This document shows, one piece after another, positions 6,477-11,655 of a stretch of DNA of 20,447 nt. A model generated the notes under the pieces. That model searched no databases. It saw only the letters and a program-made list of their open reading frames with translations, and had not been told where the DNA came from. This stretch comes from Thermoproteales archaeon. Its GTDB lineage: Archaea > Thermoproteota > Thermoprotei > Thermoproteales > Thermocladiaceae. Numbering within the stretch: the first letter of the stretch is position 1; each line of letters starts with the position of its first letter. The position numbers and the translations under genes were made by a program. The DNA lies in NCBI GenBank assembly GCA_027068725.1, contig JAMOMD010000467.1:1-20447 (forward strand). Reading direction: 5' to 3'.

Positions 6477-8978
6477 CTAGTCCACGTAACTCACCTTAAC
6501 TCTTCGGTCACCATCAATGCGCTCAATCTCGATCAGCTCAACTGGAACATTCTTTGAACGTGCCTCCTGCACTATCTGATCAATGAACTCACGACTCTGC
6601 GATGTTATGACTAGCTGACTGACCAGCCTCTCAGTTATTAGCCTAGTTATTAGACTAGCAAACGCCTTCCTAACCTCAACATCTACGTAAGGTATTGGCT
6701 CATCCATTATTAGGAAGCTCACGTTGTGACTAGCGACTGAGTACACAGACAACATGAATGCTAGAGCAAGAGTTAGTCTCTGACCATCGCTCATTCTTGA
6801 TATTGGGACTTTTCTGCCGCCTCTCCTTATGCCATATAGAACGTACTCACTTACTAGAACTCCAAGGCGCTCGCGTGTACTTATCTCTATGCTTGCTCCC
6901 GTGAGATCAGGATGAGGATATATCATTCTGAAGTACTGATCAACAAGTGATCGTGTGCGCTCGATCATTCTCTCTCTAAGATCCTTCTGTATTTTCCTCA
7001 GGACATTCCTAATCGTGTTAAGTTTCTTGTAGAGATCTTCAAGCTTGTAGACTCTGTTCCTGAGCTCCTCAACAGTCTCAACAGGAATCGAGCTGAGAAT
7101 CTGCTCAAGCCTAGAAGCCTCAACACTAAGCGCGTTTAGCCTCTCGCGAGTCTGCTCAAGTCTTCTAGAGACTTCAGAAATCTCTTCCTCTAGACGAGAA
7201 GCACGAGAGAGATCAAAGCCCTGAGCACGAAGCTTCTGTTCAAGCTCCTTTTCCTCACGTAAGAGCTCTCTATACCTCTTGATCTTCTTCAAAAGCGTTA
7301 GTGCTTCATCAACCTTGTCTAATCTACTTCTAACTTCATCAATTAGAAATCTAAGTACCTGAGCACGCTTCTCAAGAAACCTTCTATTCTTATCAATGTT
7401 CTCAAGCTTTGCAACAACTCTACTATAGTTCTCTCTCAACATTTTCAACTTTGTATAGAGTTCCTCATACTCACTAACAATAGGCTTGAGACTTTCCATC
7501 TTTGCTAACACTTGCTCAAGCTCAGTAATCCTGCGTCTAGCATTCTCTATCTCATCAAGAACCTTCCTATGCCTCTCCCTCAGCTCCTCAATTCTTCTCT
7601 TCGCCTCCTCCCTATCCTTATCACTAAGCTCTCTACCACACACAGGACAAGTGTCTAGCCGTCCTGAAGCAATTGCCTGTAGTATAGTTATGATAGCAGA
7701 GACAACACCTACATCACTCGTAGTCTTCTCCACGAGCTCTCTAAGACGCTCAAGCTCGCTTCTGATAGCCTCAGGCTGACCATACTTATTCTCCAGCTCC
7801 TGATACTCCCTAAACTGACTTTCCAGCTCTCTAAGTCTTCTCTCAATATTCCTTATCTCACTACTAAGTCGCTCAGCCTCTACCTTAAGCTCCTCATGAG
7901 CCTTAGCAAGATTCTCCTTCTCTTCATCAAATCTCGATAAAGCATCTTCAAGACGCTTCAAAATATCATAAATTTTCAGCGCAGCTTCTTCCAAGTTCTG
8001 AGAGGTTATAGAAAGCTTGGCAAGCTCCTCAGCTTCCTTAGAGAAAAGCAACTCCTCTAATTTAGAAACTAGAAAACTCCTAATAAGATCAAGCTCAATC
8101 TTTATTGAAGTTTCAGAAACGTCACTCTCCTTACCACTTATCTCCTCTTCAAGTTTCTCACGCTCACTCCTAATTTGAAGATACTTAATGTATACATTCT
8201 CAAGATCCCTCAAAGACTTAAGAATACTATTTCTCTCCTCAATAAGCTTAGCATACTTCTTCTGAAGCTCCTCTTCAAGTTTCTTCAATTCTTCTATCTC
8301 CCTCTTTATTCTATCAAGTGCTCTACGCGCTTCCTCAACAGACCCATACCTTGATATTATCTCAGGAAGCTCCTTATAGGCAGATAACTTACTCTTCTCT
8401 TGCTCAAGTATCTCTTCTACTTTTCTGATTGGTATCGACTTGTATATATTTTCAAGTATATCTATGCCAAATAGCTTATCAATAGTCAAGCTTCTTCTCG
8501 TTGATGTACCATAGACAAGTCCTTCGAGAACTCTATGAGTTACTAGAATAAACCTCGAGAAATCTTCCTCGTCTAGTCTAAGTATTTCAGTAATGATATC
8601 TGTCACATCTCTAACAGTAGAGGCAACCTTCTTGCCTCCAATAACTAGCTCGACCTGATGCTCTCTGGCAGAATCACCAACTCTCTTAAGTGCACGCATG
8701 ACACGAAGCTGCTCACCCGTGTCCTCTCTTACTAGTGTCAACGTTACACGTGCCTCGGACTCCTCCTCATTTATCAGATCTGCGAGCTTTGCTATTCTCT
8801 CCTTAATCTCAAGCTGCTTACCGTATAGTGCATACTCTATTGCTTGGACTATGCTTGATTTTCCAGCACCTACAGGTCCGTAGATTGCTACTATTGGCCT
8901 ATCGAAAGGTATGCTAACTTTTCCACGAAATCCTCGGAAATTGATAATTTCGAGACTCTGTAACCTGTACTTGGTCAT
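6477..8978 (-). CDS. SMC/Rad50-like coiled-coil ATPase; arcadin-4 candidate
   Basis: Motifs are Walker A GPVGAGKSS (aa 34-42), about 550 aa of heptad-rich coiled coil and a central CPVCGR hook-like motif (C444/C447 of 833). A divergent signature MSDGQR and Walker B FLIMDEP follow. It is the last gene of the crenactin operon, with an ATGA overlap to the upstream small ORF. Confidence 0.7.
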   Translation of the reverse strand: MTKYRLQSLEIINFRGFRGKVSIPFDRPIVAIYGPVGAGKSSIVQAIEYALYGKQLEIKERIAKLADLINEEESEARVTLTLVREDTGEQLRVMRALKRVGDSAREHQVELVIGGKKVASTVRDVTDIITEILRLDEEDFSRFILVTHRVLEGLVYGTSTRRSLTIDKLFGIDILENIYKSIPIRKVEEILEQEKSKLSAYKELPEIISRYGSVEEARRALDRIKREIEELKKLEEELQKKYAKLIEERNSILKSLRDLENVYIKYLQIRSEREKLEEEISGKESDVSETSIKIELDLIRSFLVSKLEELLFSKEAEELAKLSITSQNLEEAALKIYDILKRLEDALSRFDEEKENLAKAHEELKVEAERLSSEIRNIERRLRELESQFREYQELENKYGQPEAIRSELERLRELVEKTTSDVGVVSAIITILQAIASGRLDTCPVCGRELSDKDREEAKRRIEELRERHRKVLDEIENARRRITELEQVLAKMESLKPIVSEYEELYTKLKMLRENYSRVVAKLENIDKNRRFLEKRAQVLRFLIDEVRSRLDKVDEALTLLKKIKRYRELLREEKELEQKLRAQGFDLSRASRLEEEISEVSRRLEQTRERLNALSVEASRLEQILSSIPVETVEELRNRVYKLEDLYKKLNTIRNVLRKIQKDLRERMIERTRSLVDQYFRMIYPHPDLTGASIEISTRERLGVLVSEYVLYGIRRGGRKVPISRMSDGQRLTLALAFMLSVYSVASHNVSFLIMDEPIPYVDVEVRKAFASLITRLITERLVSQLVITSQSREFIDQIVQEARSKNVPVELIEIERIDGDRRVKVSYVD

Positions 8979-9154
8979 TCTTCCTTGATCTCTATGCCAA
9001 TCTCCTTAAGTAAACCATACACTAAGTCACGCACCTTCTTCTGACCACCCTGCTTATATGCCTGATATAGCTGTTCTGCAAGTCTGTAAGTATCCTCGTC
9101 AGGTATCTCTCTTCTAAGAAGCTCAAGAACAATCTTATCAATTTCAGTACTCAT
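8975..9154 (-). CDS. Small 59-aa protein not in the ORF track; arcadin-3 candidate by position
   Basis: Hand translation gives MSTEIDKIVLELLRREIPDEDTYRLAEQLYQAYKQGGQKKVRDLVYGLLKEIGIEIKEE. Its ATG (9152-9154) overlaps the upstream TGA (9151-9153). Its TGA (8975-8977) overlaps the downstream ATG (8976-8978). Confidence 0.6.
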   Translation of the reverse strand: MSTEIDKIVLELLRREIPDEDTYRLAEQLYQAYKQGGQKKVRDLVYGLLKEIGIEIKEE

Positions 9155-9930
9155 CTCTCGCTAGCCTTCTTAGCAAGTATTTGAACCCATGGATTATCAC
9201 GCAAGAAATCAGGCACACCCTCACTAGGCGTAGCTCCTGCTTCCTGTACCGCCTCCTCAACCATGACAGGCTTTGCCTGCGGTTTCTCAGCAGGACTTAC
9301 AGTAGCACCAGTCTGAATACTTGTCTTAAGTCTCTCTATCTCTAGCTTTAGTCTATCAACAACGTTCCACAGACTATTCAACTCCTCTTTCAGCTCCTTC
9401 CCAATTCCGGATGTCGTAACCTTTGACTCGAGCTGACGTACTCTATCCTCAAGTGCCGAGATTCTTGTCTCAAGTATACGAATTTCCTGTATAATTTTCG
9501 ATAGCTGTTCATTAACTATCTCAGCTATTACTGGTCTAAGCCTATCAATACTCTCTATATCTACGACCTTTCTAATTCTTATAGCAGGGCTCGGAAGAAC
9601 CTCCACAACTGTTCCTTTTTCAAAATCAATACCAAGCACACCTATAGAGAGTTTTTTCAATAGTTTCCCATCTAGAAGATGCACATATTCACTCTGTAGT
9701 GCTACATATACTTTATTGAAATTGTTTCTATCTTTTGCAAGTTCCATTAATGTTGAGTTAAGTCTATCAACATCTGGAAAATCTTCGAAAAGTACAAGCT
9801 TTATGAGTACAGTATTGTCTCCCTCTCTTGCAAGAATCTCGTCTTCTCTAACGTCCTCTATTACTATGCCTCTCTCTCGTGCCCAAGATCTGACTATGGA
9901 TAGTGCCTGTTCCTGAATTAGTGAAGACAC
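9151..9930 (-). CDS. Coiled-coil protein immediately downstream of crenactin; arcadin-2 candidate
   Basis: The 259-aa architecture has four parts. A globular N-terminal region spans aa 1 to about 125, and a coiled coil spans about 135 to 205. A Pro/Ala/Glu-rich linker follows, then a C-terminal amphipathic peptide, VPDFLRDNPWVQILAKKASER. It uses a GTG start. Position and architecture fit published arcadin-2. Confidence 0.6.
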   Translation of the reverse strand: MSSLIQEQALSIVRSWARERGIVIEDVREDEILAREGDNTVLIKLVLFEDFPDVDRLNSTLMELAKDRNNFNKVYVALQSEYVHLLDGKLLKKLSIGVLGIDFEKGTVVEVLPSPAIRIRKVVDIESIDRLRPVIAEIVNEQLSKIIQEIRILETRISALEDRVRQLESKVTTSGIGKELKEELNSLWNVVDRLKLEIERLKTSIQTGATVSPAEKPQAKPVMVEEAVQEAGATPSEGVPDFLRDNPWVQILAKKASER

Positions 9931-11290: not shown

Positions 11291-11292
11291 TC

Positions 11293-11655
11293 TTACCTCA
11301 GCACGTACTTGACGATTACATATTCTTTACTGAGCATTATGTACTTCTCGTCTCCCCAGTCGCAGATCTTCATGTTCTTCACGTACTCCCCAATCTTCGG
11401 GTCAGTCTCCCCTAGCTTAGCTATGCCATCTTTAACTAGGTCAACTACCTGTCCAAGAATGTCCTTCGAGTATACCTCTAGGTAGAGCACGTAGTGGTAC
11501 TTCGCGCCATTGTCGATGACTATCTTCTTGACCTTATCCTGAAATTGCTTAGCTACGACATCACCTATGCAGGAGAGGAACTGTCGGACAGCCTTGGTCT
11601 CGCTAGACTTATCGATGTTCTTCAGACATTCGTCAACGGTGTTTCCAGTCTGCAT
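11293..11655 (-). CDS. Small 120-aa protein upstream of crenactin; arcadin-1 candidate by position
   Basis: Its stop codon lies 2 nt before the crenactin ATG. A GAGGT Shine-Dalgarno-like element within its 3' end precedes that ATG. I recognise no motifs; the assignment rests on gene order only. Confidence 0.5.

What the first reader, a model, noticed from the sequence alone, without database searches (positions are those of the whole stretch)
6477..11655. Actin-based cytoskeleton operon: crenactin plus four co-transcribed partner genes
Seen in the sequence:
- A 436-aa protein carries every actin-fold ATPase motif ([38 protein letters not shown]).
- It is embedded in a same-strand five-gene array with junctions of 2 nt, 49 nt, an ATGA overlap and a second ATGA overlap.
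- A single TATA-like box sits upstream at about 11680.

Established knowledge: this order matches the crenactin/arcadin ('arcade') cluster reported for Thermoproteales and Korarchaeum by Ettema, Lindas and Bernander in 2011. That order is a small protein, the actin, a coiled-coil protein, a tiny protein and an SMC-like ATPase. Those lineages lack both FtsZ and the Cdv/ESCRT division machinery.

Inference: this is an intact, translationally coupled copy of that system. The family is already described, so it is not novel as such. It is still the most unusual system in the window, because the functions of arcadin-1, -3 and -4 remain unknown.
Basis: partly seen in the sequence, partly recalled or inferred. 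Interest (0 to 1): 0.8.

Follow-up and report, generated by a model that had tools for sequence, protein, structure and literature searches.

The report
Rearranged crenactin cluster with extra gene

Summary
Five minus-strand ORFs (120, 436, 259, 59 and 833 aa) have exactly the stated junctions, the four actin motifs are present, and one TATA-like box sits at 11679-11687.

- The 436-aa protein is crenactin (NCBIfam equivalog 741 bits, cutoff 630; PDB 4CJ7 E=5.5e-170).
- The three downstream genes are diverged orthologs of arcadin-2, -3 and -4.
- The 120-aa first gene is not arcadin-1. It has no Pfam Arcadin_1 match, no match to the arcadin-1 structure 5LY5, and hhalign probability 1.9%.
- The true arcadin-1 is ORF 12317-12688 on the plus strand, beyond Alba (Pfam 123.8 bits; 5LY5 E=3e-34).

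Relative to Thermoproteus tenax (Alba, arcadin-1, crenactin all co-directional), the Alba/arcadin-1 block points the other way and a new gene heads the operon.

That gene belongs to a tiny family (18 representatives among 1.84 billion proteins). Its model is confident (pLDDT 89.5) but has no significant structural relative. It lies directly upstream of crenactin in 16 loci, two of which lack adjacent arcadin-2/3/4. It is most likely a lineage-specific crenactin partner; that role is inferred, not shown.

Verdict: a known system in a new variant.

The parts
12317..12688 (+). True arcadin-1 (123 aa).
   Evidence: Pfam PF18653 Arcadin_1 E=4.2e-36, 123.8 bits against a cutoff of 25. PDB 5LY5 arcadin-1 E=3.1e-34 over residues 7-115. 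50-53% identical to the T. tenax and Pyrobaculum arcadin-1 genes.
12274..12284 (+). TATA-like AAAAATTAAAG about 38 nt upstream of the arcadin-1 ATG; a candidate promoter of its own.
   Evidence: Read. Function is inferred only.
11722..12006 (+). Alba chromatin protein (94 aa), divergent from the crenactin operon and co-directional with arcadin-1. A T6 run follows at about 12055-12062.
   Evidence: Pfam Alba E=4.2e-18. Adjacent and divergent in every window-clade and Vulcanisaeta locus. Co-directional with arcadin-1 and crenactin in T. tenax.
11672..11686 (-). Conserved promoter footprint TTTTAAAGTATTACC (near-palindromic TATA CTTTTAAAG at 11679-11687) in the 66-bp spacer between the 120-aa gene and Alba.
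   Evidence: Invariant core in five loci with otherwise diverged spacers. Only TATA-like match on the minus strand between 6400 and 11760. Its centre is about 28 nt from the 120-aa gene's ATG, which implies a leaderless or near-leaderless mRNA (inference from the usual archaeal TATA position).
11293..11655 (-). Undescribed small protein ('g120', 120 aa), first cistron, 2 nt upstream of crenactin. It is NOT arcadin-1.
   Evidence: No PF18653 or NCBIfam hit. hhalign against arcadin-1 gives probability 1.9%. Family of 19 clusters and 18 representatives. AF2 pLDDT 89.5, pTM 0.83. No Foldseek hit at E<=1e-3 in PDB or BFVD. dN/dS 0.31. Directly upstream of crenactin in 16 loci.
9980..11290 (-). Crenactin (436 aa).
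   Evidence: NCBIfam NF053560 crenactin equivalog 741 bits against a cutoff of 630. PDB 4CJ7/4BQL E about 6e-170; the next best hits are eukaryotic actins at about 1e-6 and no MreB or ParM appears. Motifs located. SD-like GAGGT ends 4 nt before the ATG.
9151..9930 (-). Arcadin-2 ortholog (259 aa): globular N-domain, extended coiled coil, variable linker, C-terminal helix.
   Evidence: NCBIfam Rkd2 E=3.8e-10, but 39.8 bits against a cutoff of 290. Vulcanisaeta orthologs score equally low while T. tenax passes. Family alignment. Always directly downstream of crenactin.
9166..9213 (-). Arcadin-2 C-terminal crenactin-binding helix PDFLRDNPWVQILAKK (aa 240-255) with the invariant Trp248.
   Evidence: W248 is invariant and N246 and L252 nearly so across 12 orthologs including Pyrobaculum, T. 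tenax and Caldarchaeales. The equivalent 17-residue peptide of P. calidifontis arcadin-2 binds crenactin's hydrophobic groove through a Trp and depolymerises filaments (PMC5173319).
8975..9154 (-). Arcadin-3 ortholog (59 aa). Its ATG overlaps the arcadin-2 stop (ATGA) and its stop overlaps the arcadin-4 ATG (ATGA).
   Evidence: NCBIfam Rkd3 E=5.7e-9, 35.9 bits against a cutoff of 90. Overlaps read. Conserved position and size.
6477..8978 (-). Arcadin-4 ortholog (833 aa), a Rad50/SMC-like ABC ATPase. Walker A at aa 34-42, CPVC hook at aa 444-447 (7638-7649), signature SDGQR at 730-734, Walker B at 755-761, and Gln in place of the H-loop His (791-795).
   Evidence: NCBIfam Rkd4 E=6.9e-220, 732 bits against a cutoff of 860, covering the full 747-position profile. 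Pfam SMC_N, AAA_23 and a weak Rad50_zn_hook. Both head lobes match archaeal Rad50 structures. Motif coordinates.

Best explanation
The window carries a complete but rearranged crenactin ('arcade') locus from an uncultured relative of Vulcanisaeta. It is organised as two divergent units around a 66-bp spacer that holds one conserved, near-palindromic TATA element.

Minus-strand unit: a previously undescribed 120-aa gene (g120), then crenactin, arcadin-2, arcadin-3 and arcadin-4. Plus-strand side: Alba, followed 310 nt later by the true arcadin-1, which has its own promoter-like element. Relative to Thermoproteus tenax (Alba, arcadin-1 and crenactin all co-directional), the Alba/arcadin-1 block is inverted and g120 occupies the slot immediately upstream of crenactin.

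How it most likely works:
- (Shown for the P. calidifontis orthologs, inferred here) Crenactin polymerises with ATP into F-actin-like double filaments.
- (Shown for P. calidifontis, inferred here) Arcadin-2 inserts its C-terminal Trp-containing helix into crenactin's hydrophobic groove and sequesters monomers or depolymerises filaments. That helix is conserved in the window.
- (Inferred from sequence) Arcadin-4 is a Rad50-like ATPase with long coiled coils and a CxxC hook, so it could bridge or tether structures. Arcadin-3 is its likely small partner, because its gene overlaps both neighbouring genes by ATGA.
- (Inferred from genomic linkage only) g120 is a small alpha/beta protein made from the same, probably leaderless, mRNA as crenactin. 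It most likely acts as a lineage-specific crenactin-associated factor.
For: Identities:
- Crenactin scores above the equivalog cutoff and best matches 4CJ7.
- Arcadin-1 at 12317-12688 (+) is supported by Pfam and by 5LY5.
- Arcadin-2, -3 and -4 are supported by unique best family hits, synteny and diagnostic motifs.

g120 is not arcadin-1.

g120 is a real gene:
- Members are 22-82% identical with conserved length and invariant C10, R24, C29, G50 and Y58.
- dN/dS is 0.31.
- The AF2 model is confident.
- An independent gene caller called it.

Layout: arcadin-1 and Alba point away from g120 and crenactin in all 11 Vulcanisaeta and window-clade loci with enough upstream sequence, and in L026 and L029. 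T. tenax and Pyrobaculum have arcadin-1 directly upstream of crenactin and no g120.

Linkage: g120 lies directly upstream of crenactin in 16 loci. L024 and L026 have no arcadin-2/3/4 after crenactin.

Promoter: conserved footprint and a unique TATA match.

Biochemistry of the orthologs: PMC5173319.
Against: - No transcript data exist. The 49-nt crenactin/arcadin-2 spacer is unconserved and arcadin-2 starts with GTG, so a single transcript is unproven.
- g120's role rests on gene neighbourhood alone. No interaction, fold analogy or motif ties it to actin.
- The two loci recovered for the most diverged family subgroup (P0151, P0152) are not next to crenactin but next to GNAT acetyltransferases.
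- Thermocladium has crenactin without g120.
- Arcadin-2, -3 and -4 score below the NCBIfam equivalog cutoffs.
- Ettema et al. 2011 could not be read, so the rearrangement may already have been described there.
Confidence: 0.8

Rival explanations
1. One reading: a canonical, colinear five-gene arcade operon in which the 120-aa first gene is arcadin-1, merely very diverged.
For: Position and size match: 120 aa against 111-113 aa, directly upstream of crenactin as in Pyrobaculum and T. tenax.
Against: A bona fide arcadin-1 exists 660 bp away on the other strand, 50-53% identical to the Pyrobaculum and T. tenax proteins. The 120-aa protein has no PF18653 hit at E<=1, no 5LY5 hit at E<=10 even as a profile, and hhalign probability 1.9%.
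Confidence: 0.03
2. g120 is an ancient duplicate of arcadin-1 that has diverged beyond sequence recognition. The lineage would then carry two arcadin-1 paralogs.
For: Similar length, same slot, and g120 evolves quickly (dN about 13 times crenactin's), so sequence signal could have eroded.
Against: The predicted topology is helix-rich alpha/beta (a-a-b-b-a-a-b-b-b). 5LY5 is not among the 50 best Foldseek PDB matches shown. There are no shared motifs. Arcadin-1 itself is well conserved across the same span.
Confidence: 0.05
3. g120 is functionally unrelated to crenactin, for example a small metal-binding regulator or housekeeping protein, and merely shares its promoter.
For: The two loci recovered for the most diverged subgroup lie beside GNAT acetyltransferases with no actin nearby. 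Most family members carry a four-Cys pattern that suggests a Zn site. Thermocladium manages without g120. No actin-binding fold was detected.
Against: Adjacency to crenactin is kept in 16 loci while g120 itself drifts to 22-35% identity, with spacers of 0-14 nt in most. It is kept even where arcadin-2/3/4 and Alba/arcadin-1 are not adjacent (L024). That degree of conserved tight linkage usually reflects functional coupling.
Confidence: 0.25
4. The 120-aa ORF is a spurious open frame in a long 5' leader of crenactin.
For: No database annotation beyond 'hypothetical protein'.
Against: Conserved length and invariant residues across 25 sequences. dN/dS 0.31. AF2 pLDDT 89.5. The conserved TATA sits about 28 nt from its ATG.
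Confidence: 0.01

Closest known systems
Arcade cluster of Pyrobaculum calidifontis and Thermoproteus tenax (rkd-1, cren-1, rkd-2, rkd-3, rkd-4; Ettema et al. 2011, cited from memory; Izore et al. 2016, PMC5173319)
   Same: Same crenactin (about 60% identity to the Pyrobaculum and Thermoproteus proteins). Same downstream order arcadin-2, arcadin-3, arcadin-4 with tight or overlapping junctions. Same arcadin-2 C-terminal Trp helix. Arcadin-1 is present nearby. Alba is a neighbour, as in T. tenax.
   Different: Arcadin-1 is not the first cistron; it is divergently oriented beyond Alba. An extra 120-aa gene of an unrelated family heads the operon. Arcadin-2 is about 60 aa longer (longer coiled coil and linker). 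A 49-nt spacer replaces the 4-nt spacer or overlap between crenactin and arcadin-2. Arcadin-2, -3 and -4 are diverged enough to fall below the NCBIfam equivalog cutoffs.
Eukaryotic actin with monomer sequesterers that bind the hydrophobic groove (thymosin beta4, WH2), and ParM/ParR
   Same: Works alike: a short helix from the partner occupies the groove between subdomains, competing with the D-loop (PMC5173319). The helix is conserved here.
   Different: No sequence relationship. Izore et al. regard arcadin-2's mode of action as possibly convergent.
Rad50/SMC ABC ATPases
   Same: Bipartite head with Walker A and B, long antiparallel coiled coils and a central CxxC hook.
   Different: No Mre11-like nuclease partner in the cluster. 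The signature motif is SDGQR and the H-loop His is replaced by Gln across the arcadin-4 sequences examined. It is linked to an actin gene and not to DNA-repair genes.
Small nucleotidyltransferase-fold proteins (RsfS/iojap/MALSU1), the nearest structural echoes of g120
   Same: Compact two-layer alpha/beta domain of similar size. Best compact match is 3UPS with TM 0.49/0.54 and rmsd 3.6 A.
   Different: Not significant (E about 1e-2, 8-16% identity). No G[GS] or DxD nucleotidyltransferase motifs. A beta-hairpin sits where the nucleotidyltransferase fold has a helix. This is a resemblance only, not membership.

Membership tests
Crenactin (NCBIfam NF053560) | Score at or above the curated equivalog cutoff | tested here: met
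   741.1 bits against a cutoff of 630, covering profile positions 1-422 of 422.
Crenactin | Closest to solved crenactin and then eukaryotic actin, not MreB, ParM or Hsp70 | tested here: met
   4CJ7 and 4BQL at E about 6e-170. The next hits are eukaryotic actins and Arps at 1e-6 or weaker. No MreB, ParM or Hsp70 at E<=0.01.
Crenactin | ATP-dependent polymerisation into double-helical filaments | not testable with these tools
   Shown only for the P. calidifontis protein (PMC5173319).
Arcadin-1 (Pfam PF18653; PDB 5LY5), applied to the 120-aa ORF 11293-11655 | Sequence or profile match to Arcadin_1 or 5LY5 | tested here: not met
   No PF18653 hit at E<=1. No 5LY5 hit at E<=10 with the single sequence or the family profile. 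hhalign probability 1.9%.
Arcadin-1, applied to ORF 12317-12688 (+) | Sequence match to Arcadin_1 or 5LY5 | tested here: met
   PF18653 at 123.8 bits against a cutoff of 25. 5LY5 at E=3.1e-34 over nearly the full length.
Arcadin-2 (NCBIfam NF053561) | Equivalog cutoff | tested here: not met
   39.8 bits against 290, though E=3.8e-10 over the N-domain. Vulcanisaeta (40.6) and L020 (42.2) are equally low, while T. tenax passes at 296. This is lineage-wide divergence.
Arcadin-2 | Conserved C-terminal helix with Trp, separated from the core by a variable linker, which is the crenactin-binding element | tested here: met
   W248 is invariant and the DNPW..IL motif is conserved in 12 orthologs. The feature is defined in PMC5173319.
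Arcadin-2 | Binds crenactin's groove and depolymerises filaments | not testable with these tools
   Needs biochemistry or a complex prediction.
Arcadin-3 (NCBIfam NF053562) | Equivalog cutoff; small protein encoded between arcadin-2 and arcadin-4 | tested here: inconclusive
   35.9 bits against 90 (below cutoff), but E=5.7e-9 and a unique hit. Position, size (59 aa) and overlapping junctions match the T. tenax and Pyrobaculum loci.
Arcadin-4 (NCBIfam NF053563) | Equivalog cutoff | tested here: not met
   732 bits against 860. It is still the top hit by about 580 bits over Rad50 models and spans all 747 profile positions. Vulcanisaeta scores 950 and L020 scores 462.
Arcadin-4 | Rad50-like head, coiled coils and CxxC hinge | tested here: met
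Arcade cluster as a colinear operon rkd-1, cren-1, rkd-2, rkd-3, rkd-4 | Arcadin-1 directly upstream of and co-directional with crenactin | tested here: not met
   Arcadin-1 is on the opposite strand, beyond Alba.
Arcade cluster as a colinear operon | Single transcript and translational coupling | not testable with these tools
   Only indirect support: one conserved TATA, overlaps and short spacers, and no T-run terminators inside the array.
ADF-H / twinfilin (a lead for g120) | Sequence or fold match to an ADF-H domain | tested here: not met
   The single-sequence hit at E=0.06 disappears with the family profile. No ADF-H or gelsolin domain appears among the 50 best Foldseek matches shown. 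The aligned segment maps onto different secondary-structure elements.
Nucleotidyltransferase fold / RsfS (g120) | Significant structural match and catalytic motifs | tested here: inconclusive

The most novel reading that the evidence does not exclude
The g120 family is a new crenactin-binding regulator, in effect a fifth arcadin, with a fold that has no recognisable relative. It arose in or was recruited by the Vulcanisaeta-like lineage and is the gene most tightly coupled to crenactin there. It would be made from the same leaderless mRNA and would have taken over the head-of-operon role that arcadin-1 holds in Pyrobaculum.
Probability: 0.4. Interest if true: 0.6.

Novelty: new variant of a known kind. 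Interest (0 to 1): 0.42.

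Why it matters
Thermoproteales have no recognisable FtsZ or Cdv division machinery, and the crenactin/arcadin system is the leading candidate for shaping and dividing these cells. 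Only arcadin-2 has a known activity so far.

Correcting the gene assignments prevents a wrong annotation (g120 labelled as arcadin-1) from spreading. It also shows that arcadin-1's linkage to crenactin is looser than assumed: it can be inverted, or separated by other genes as in Vulcanisaeta.

The analysis also nominates a new, experimentally tractable candidate partner of an archaeal actin. The family is present in cultured Vulcanisaeta species, is only 104-121 aa long, and models confidently. If it binds crenactin, it would add to the small set of known prokaryotic actin regulators and give a second handle on how this cytoskeleton is controlled.

Tried and rejected
1. Twinfilin/ADF-H lead for g120 (phmmer E=0.06). 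Rejected: the hit is lost with the family profile, absent from the Foldseek matches shown, and the secondary-structure elements do not correspond.
2. g120 as arcadin-1. Rejected.
4. AF2 of the arcadin-2 N-domain. The single-sequence run gave pLDDT 54.9, too poor for a fold search. Pfam and a PDB profile search of the N-domain found nothing beyond coiled-coil matches.
It was replaced by individual contig look-ups.
6. The sigma-70 promoter and intrinsic-terminator scan gave counts no higher than in the shuffled controls, and it is not appropriate for archaea.
7. Rfam, tRNA and repeat scans found nothing relevant.
8. dS is saturated in most comparisons, so only the window versus L001 dN/dS values are usable.
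9. Ettema et al. 2011 is not held, and no held paper links arcadin-1 or the arcade cluster with Vulcanisaeta or Caldivirga. Prior description of the rearrangement cannot be excluded.

Full report
OBSERVATION. The minus strand between 6477 and 11655 carries five consecutive ORFs of 120, 436, 259, 59 and 833 aa. The four quoted actin motifs are present at aa 17-26, 187-195, 355-363 and 406-415. A TATA-like CTTTTAAAG lies at 11679-11687. With a simple pattern it is the only such element on that strand between 6400 and 11760. The source is a 101.9-kb metagenome contig (ENA ERZ27262665), on which an independent gene caller made the same calls.

IDENTITIES THAT HOLD. The 436-aa protein is crenactin. 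It scores 741 bits on the NCBIfam crenactin equivalog (cutoff 630). It matches the P. calidifontis crenactin structures 4CJ7 and 4BQL at E about 6e-170, eukaryotic actins come next at about 1e-6, and no MreB, ParM or Hsp70 appears.

The 259-aa protein is the arcadin-2 ortholog. Its N-domain matches the NCBIfam arcadin-2 model at E=3.8e-10. An alignment with the Pyrobaculum, T. tenax, Vulcanisaeta and Caldarchaeales proteins encoded immediately downstream of crenactin shows the same three-part architecture. It also shows a conserved C-terminal helix, (D/E)N(P/E)W(V/I)x(I/V)L, with an invariant Trp. This is the element that Izore et al. showed to bind crenactin's hydrophobic groove and depolymerise filaments (PMC5173319).

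The 59-aa protein matches arcadin-3 (E=5.7e-9). The 833-aa protein matches arcadin-4 over the entire profile (732 bits). Arcadin-4 has a Rad50-type bipartite head, long coiled coils and a central CPVC hook.

All three partner proteins score below NCBI's equivalog cutoffs. Calibration shows why for two of them: T. tenax arcadin-2 and arcadin-4 pass and its arcadin-3 falls 0.1 bit short, while Vulcanisaeta arcadin-2 and arcadin-3 are as low as the window's. The models are therefore tuned to the Pyrobaculum/Thermoproteus branch.

THE CORRECTION. The 120-aa first gene ('g120') is not arcadin-1.
- Pfam has a dedicated Arcadin_1 family (PF18653) and the PDB holds the P. aerophilum arcadin-1 structure 5LY5.
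- g120 matches neither, as a single sequence or as a ten-member family profile.
- Profile-profile comparison with an arcadin-1 alignment gives 1.9% probability.

Context from other genomes supports this. In T. tenax the order is Alba, arcadin-1, crenactin, arcadin-2, -3 and -4, all on one strand. In a Pyrobaculum contig arcadin-1 directly precedes crenactin. In the window, and in all 11 related Vulcanisaeta and uncultured-Thermoproteaceae loci with enough upstream sequence, arcadin-1 and Alba point away from crenactin and g120 fills the upstream slot. Two further loci, L026 and L029, show the same arrangement. In Vulcanisaeta, two more genes, one of them an Arf/Ras-like GTPase, separate arcadin-1 from Alba.

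WHAT g120 IS. It is a real, conserved, fast-evolving gene.
- Family size: the word-indexed search found 19 clusters and the exhaustive HMMER search found 18 representatives among 1.84 billion proteins. All but one are 77-121 aa and the named ones are annotated 'hypothetical'.
- Conservation: C10, R24, C29, G50 and Y58 are invariant, and D48, N49, E60 and E111 nearly so.
- Cysteines: most members have two further Cys, giving a four-Cys pattern that the window's subclade has lost.
- Selection: window versus its closest relative L001 gives dN/dS 0.31. Its dN of 0.27 compares with 0.021 for crenactin, 0.055 for arcadin-3, 0.083 for arcadin-1, 0.13 for arcadin-4 and 0.33 for arcadin-2.
- Structure: AlphaFold2 with a 17-sequence alignment gives a confident model (pLDDT 89.5, pTM 0.83) with topology alpha-alpha-beta-beta-alpha-alpha-beta-beta-beta.

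LINKAGE. A g120-family gene lies immediately upstream of crenactin in 16 loci: the window, L001, L004-L009, L012, L013, L016, L024 and L026-L029. Spacers are mostly 0-14 nt, even where the g120 proteins are only 22-35% identical.

In L024 and L026 the g120-crenactin pair is not followed by arcadin-2/3/4, and in L024 it also lacks Alba and arcadin-1. The pairing is therefore the most persistent feature of the locus in this lineage.

There are counter-examples. The two loci recovered for the most diverged subgroup sit next to GNAT acetyltransferases without crenactin. Thermocladium has a solo crenactin, preceded by a Roadblock/LC7 gene, with no g120 and no adjacent arcadins. T. tenax, Pyrobaculum, a Caldarchaeales locus and L020 also lack g120 in the fetched loci.

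EXPRESSION SIGNALS (inference).
- The 66-bp spacer between g120 and Alba contains TTTTAAA(G/A)TATTACC, invariant in five loci whose surrounding spacer has diverged.
- Its centre is about 28 nt from the g120 ATG. Given the usual archaeal TATA position about 26-27 nt upstream of the start site (established knowledge), this predicts a leaderless or near-leaderless mRNA.
- The element is nearly palindromic and lies about 39 nt from the Alba ATG, so it may serve both directions.
- Crenactin's ATG is preceded by GAGGT inside the g120 3' end.
- The crenactin/arcadin-2 spacer is unconserved in sequence and in length: 36-72 nt in the closest relatives, against an overlap or 4 nt in T. tenax and Pyrobaculum. 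It has no TATA-like motif.
- Arcadin-1 has its own TATA-like AAAAATTAAAG, and a T6 run follows Alba.
- Co-transcription of the five minus-strand genes is thus plausible but untested.

MECHANISM. By orthology with the P. calidifontis proteins (PMC5173319), crenactin should form ATP-dependent, F-actin-like double filaments, and arcadin-2 should cap or sequester monomers through its Trp helix. Reviews report crenactin in extended helical structures and arcadin-2 between segregated nucleoids, suggesting local disassembly at mid-cell (PMC5840170). Arcadin-4's Rad50-like design suggests an ATP-gated, hook-dimerised tether, and arcadin-3 is its probable small subunit given the double gene overlap. 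These last two points are inferences. Arcadin-1, which binds crenactin weakly (Kd 15 uM) and oligomerises, is retained but transcriptionally uncoupled here. I consider g120 most likely a lineage-specific crenactin-associated factor (about 0.4-0.5). The main rival is a co-expressed but functionally unrelated small, possibly metal-binding protein (about 0.25).

NOVELTY AND SCORE. The system as a whole is known. What is new relative to the sources I could read is the correct parts list for this lineage and the g120 family. I could not read Ettema et al. 2011, and the rearrangement may be shown there. I rate this a new variant of a known kind, with interest 0.42.

Noticed in passing
window 11679-11687 (spacer 11656-11721): One near-palindromic TATA element (CTTTTAAAG) sits between two divergent genes, about 28 nt from the g120 ATG and about 39 nt from the Alba ATG. 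It might act as a bidirectional promoter core. The conserved footprint extends asymmetrically (TATTACC) towards g120.
   Followed up: partly
window 6594-6608 and 6777-6791 (arcadin-4 aa 791-795 and 730-734): Arcadin-4 has Gln where Rad50/SMC proteins have the H-loop His (ITSQS; TTQT, ATQS and TTQS in T. tenax, Pyrobaculum and Vulcanisaeta). Its signature motif is SDGQR instead of SGGQ/E. This may indicate altered ATP-hydrolysis kinetics across the arcadin-4 family.
   Followed up: partly
window 11293-11655 and alignment A7: The g120 family has two invariant Cys (C10, C29). In 13-15 of 25 members there are two more (an N-terminal CxxC or Cx4-6C partner, and one near position 77), which suggests a four-Cys zinc site. 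The window's subclade has lost that second pair.
   Followed up: partly
L007 7786-8847 (Vulcanisaeta); L014 427-1334 (Thermocladium): In Vulcanisaeta an Arf/Ras-like small GTPase and a 165-aa ORF are inserted between arcadin-1 and Alba. In Thermocladium a Roadblock/LC7 protein and a small membrane protein precede a solo crenactin that has no adjacent arcadin-2/3/4. GTPase/Roadblock pairs next to an actin recall MglA/MglB polarity modules.
   Followed up: partly
L024 6645-7673 (-): Where g120 and crenactin stand alone, a 342-aa ORF with weak SMC_N/AAA_23 P-loop matches converges on crenactin. It may be a short SMC-like partner replacing arcadin-4.
   Followed up: no
L023 and L025: The two loci recovered for the most diverged g120 subgroup (P0151, P0152) are encoded next to GNAT acetyltransferases, not crenactin. 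The window also has a GNAT gene about 4 kb away (15449-16000), in a neighbourhood conserved in L026.
   Followed up: no
window 11722-12006 (Alba): Alba is 100% identical in protein sequence to L001 with dS of only 0.15, while neighbouring genes have dS of 0.9-2. This suggests very strong codon constraint or a recent exchange.
   Followed up: no
window 12007-12316: The 310-nt Alba/arcadin-1 spacer is compositionally odd: an A-rich tract, a T6 run, then a long CT-rich stretch with an imperfect 22-nt direct repeat (12157-12178 and 12216-12237). No Rfam family matches it.
   Followed up: partly
window 9151-9930 compared with L017 and L018: Arcadin-2 and g120 are the fastest-evolving genes of the locus (dN about 15 and 13 times crenactin's). 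Arcadin-2 length varies from 195 to 268 aa through its coiled coil and linker, while the terminal helix stays fixed.
   Followed up: yes
window 12707-16000: Conserved flanking neighbourhood: RNA polymerase subunit Rpb6/RpoK, thermosome (Cpn60/TCP-1), an S26-like peptidase and a GNAT acetyltransferase. The first two also flank arcadin-1 in L026 and L029.
   Followed up: partly
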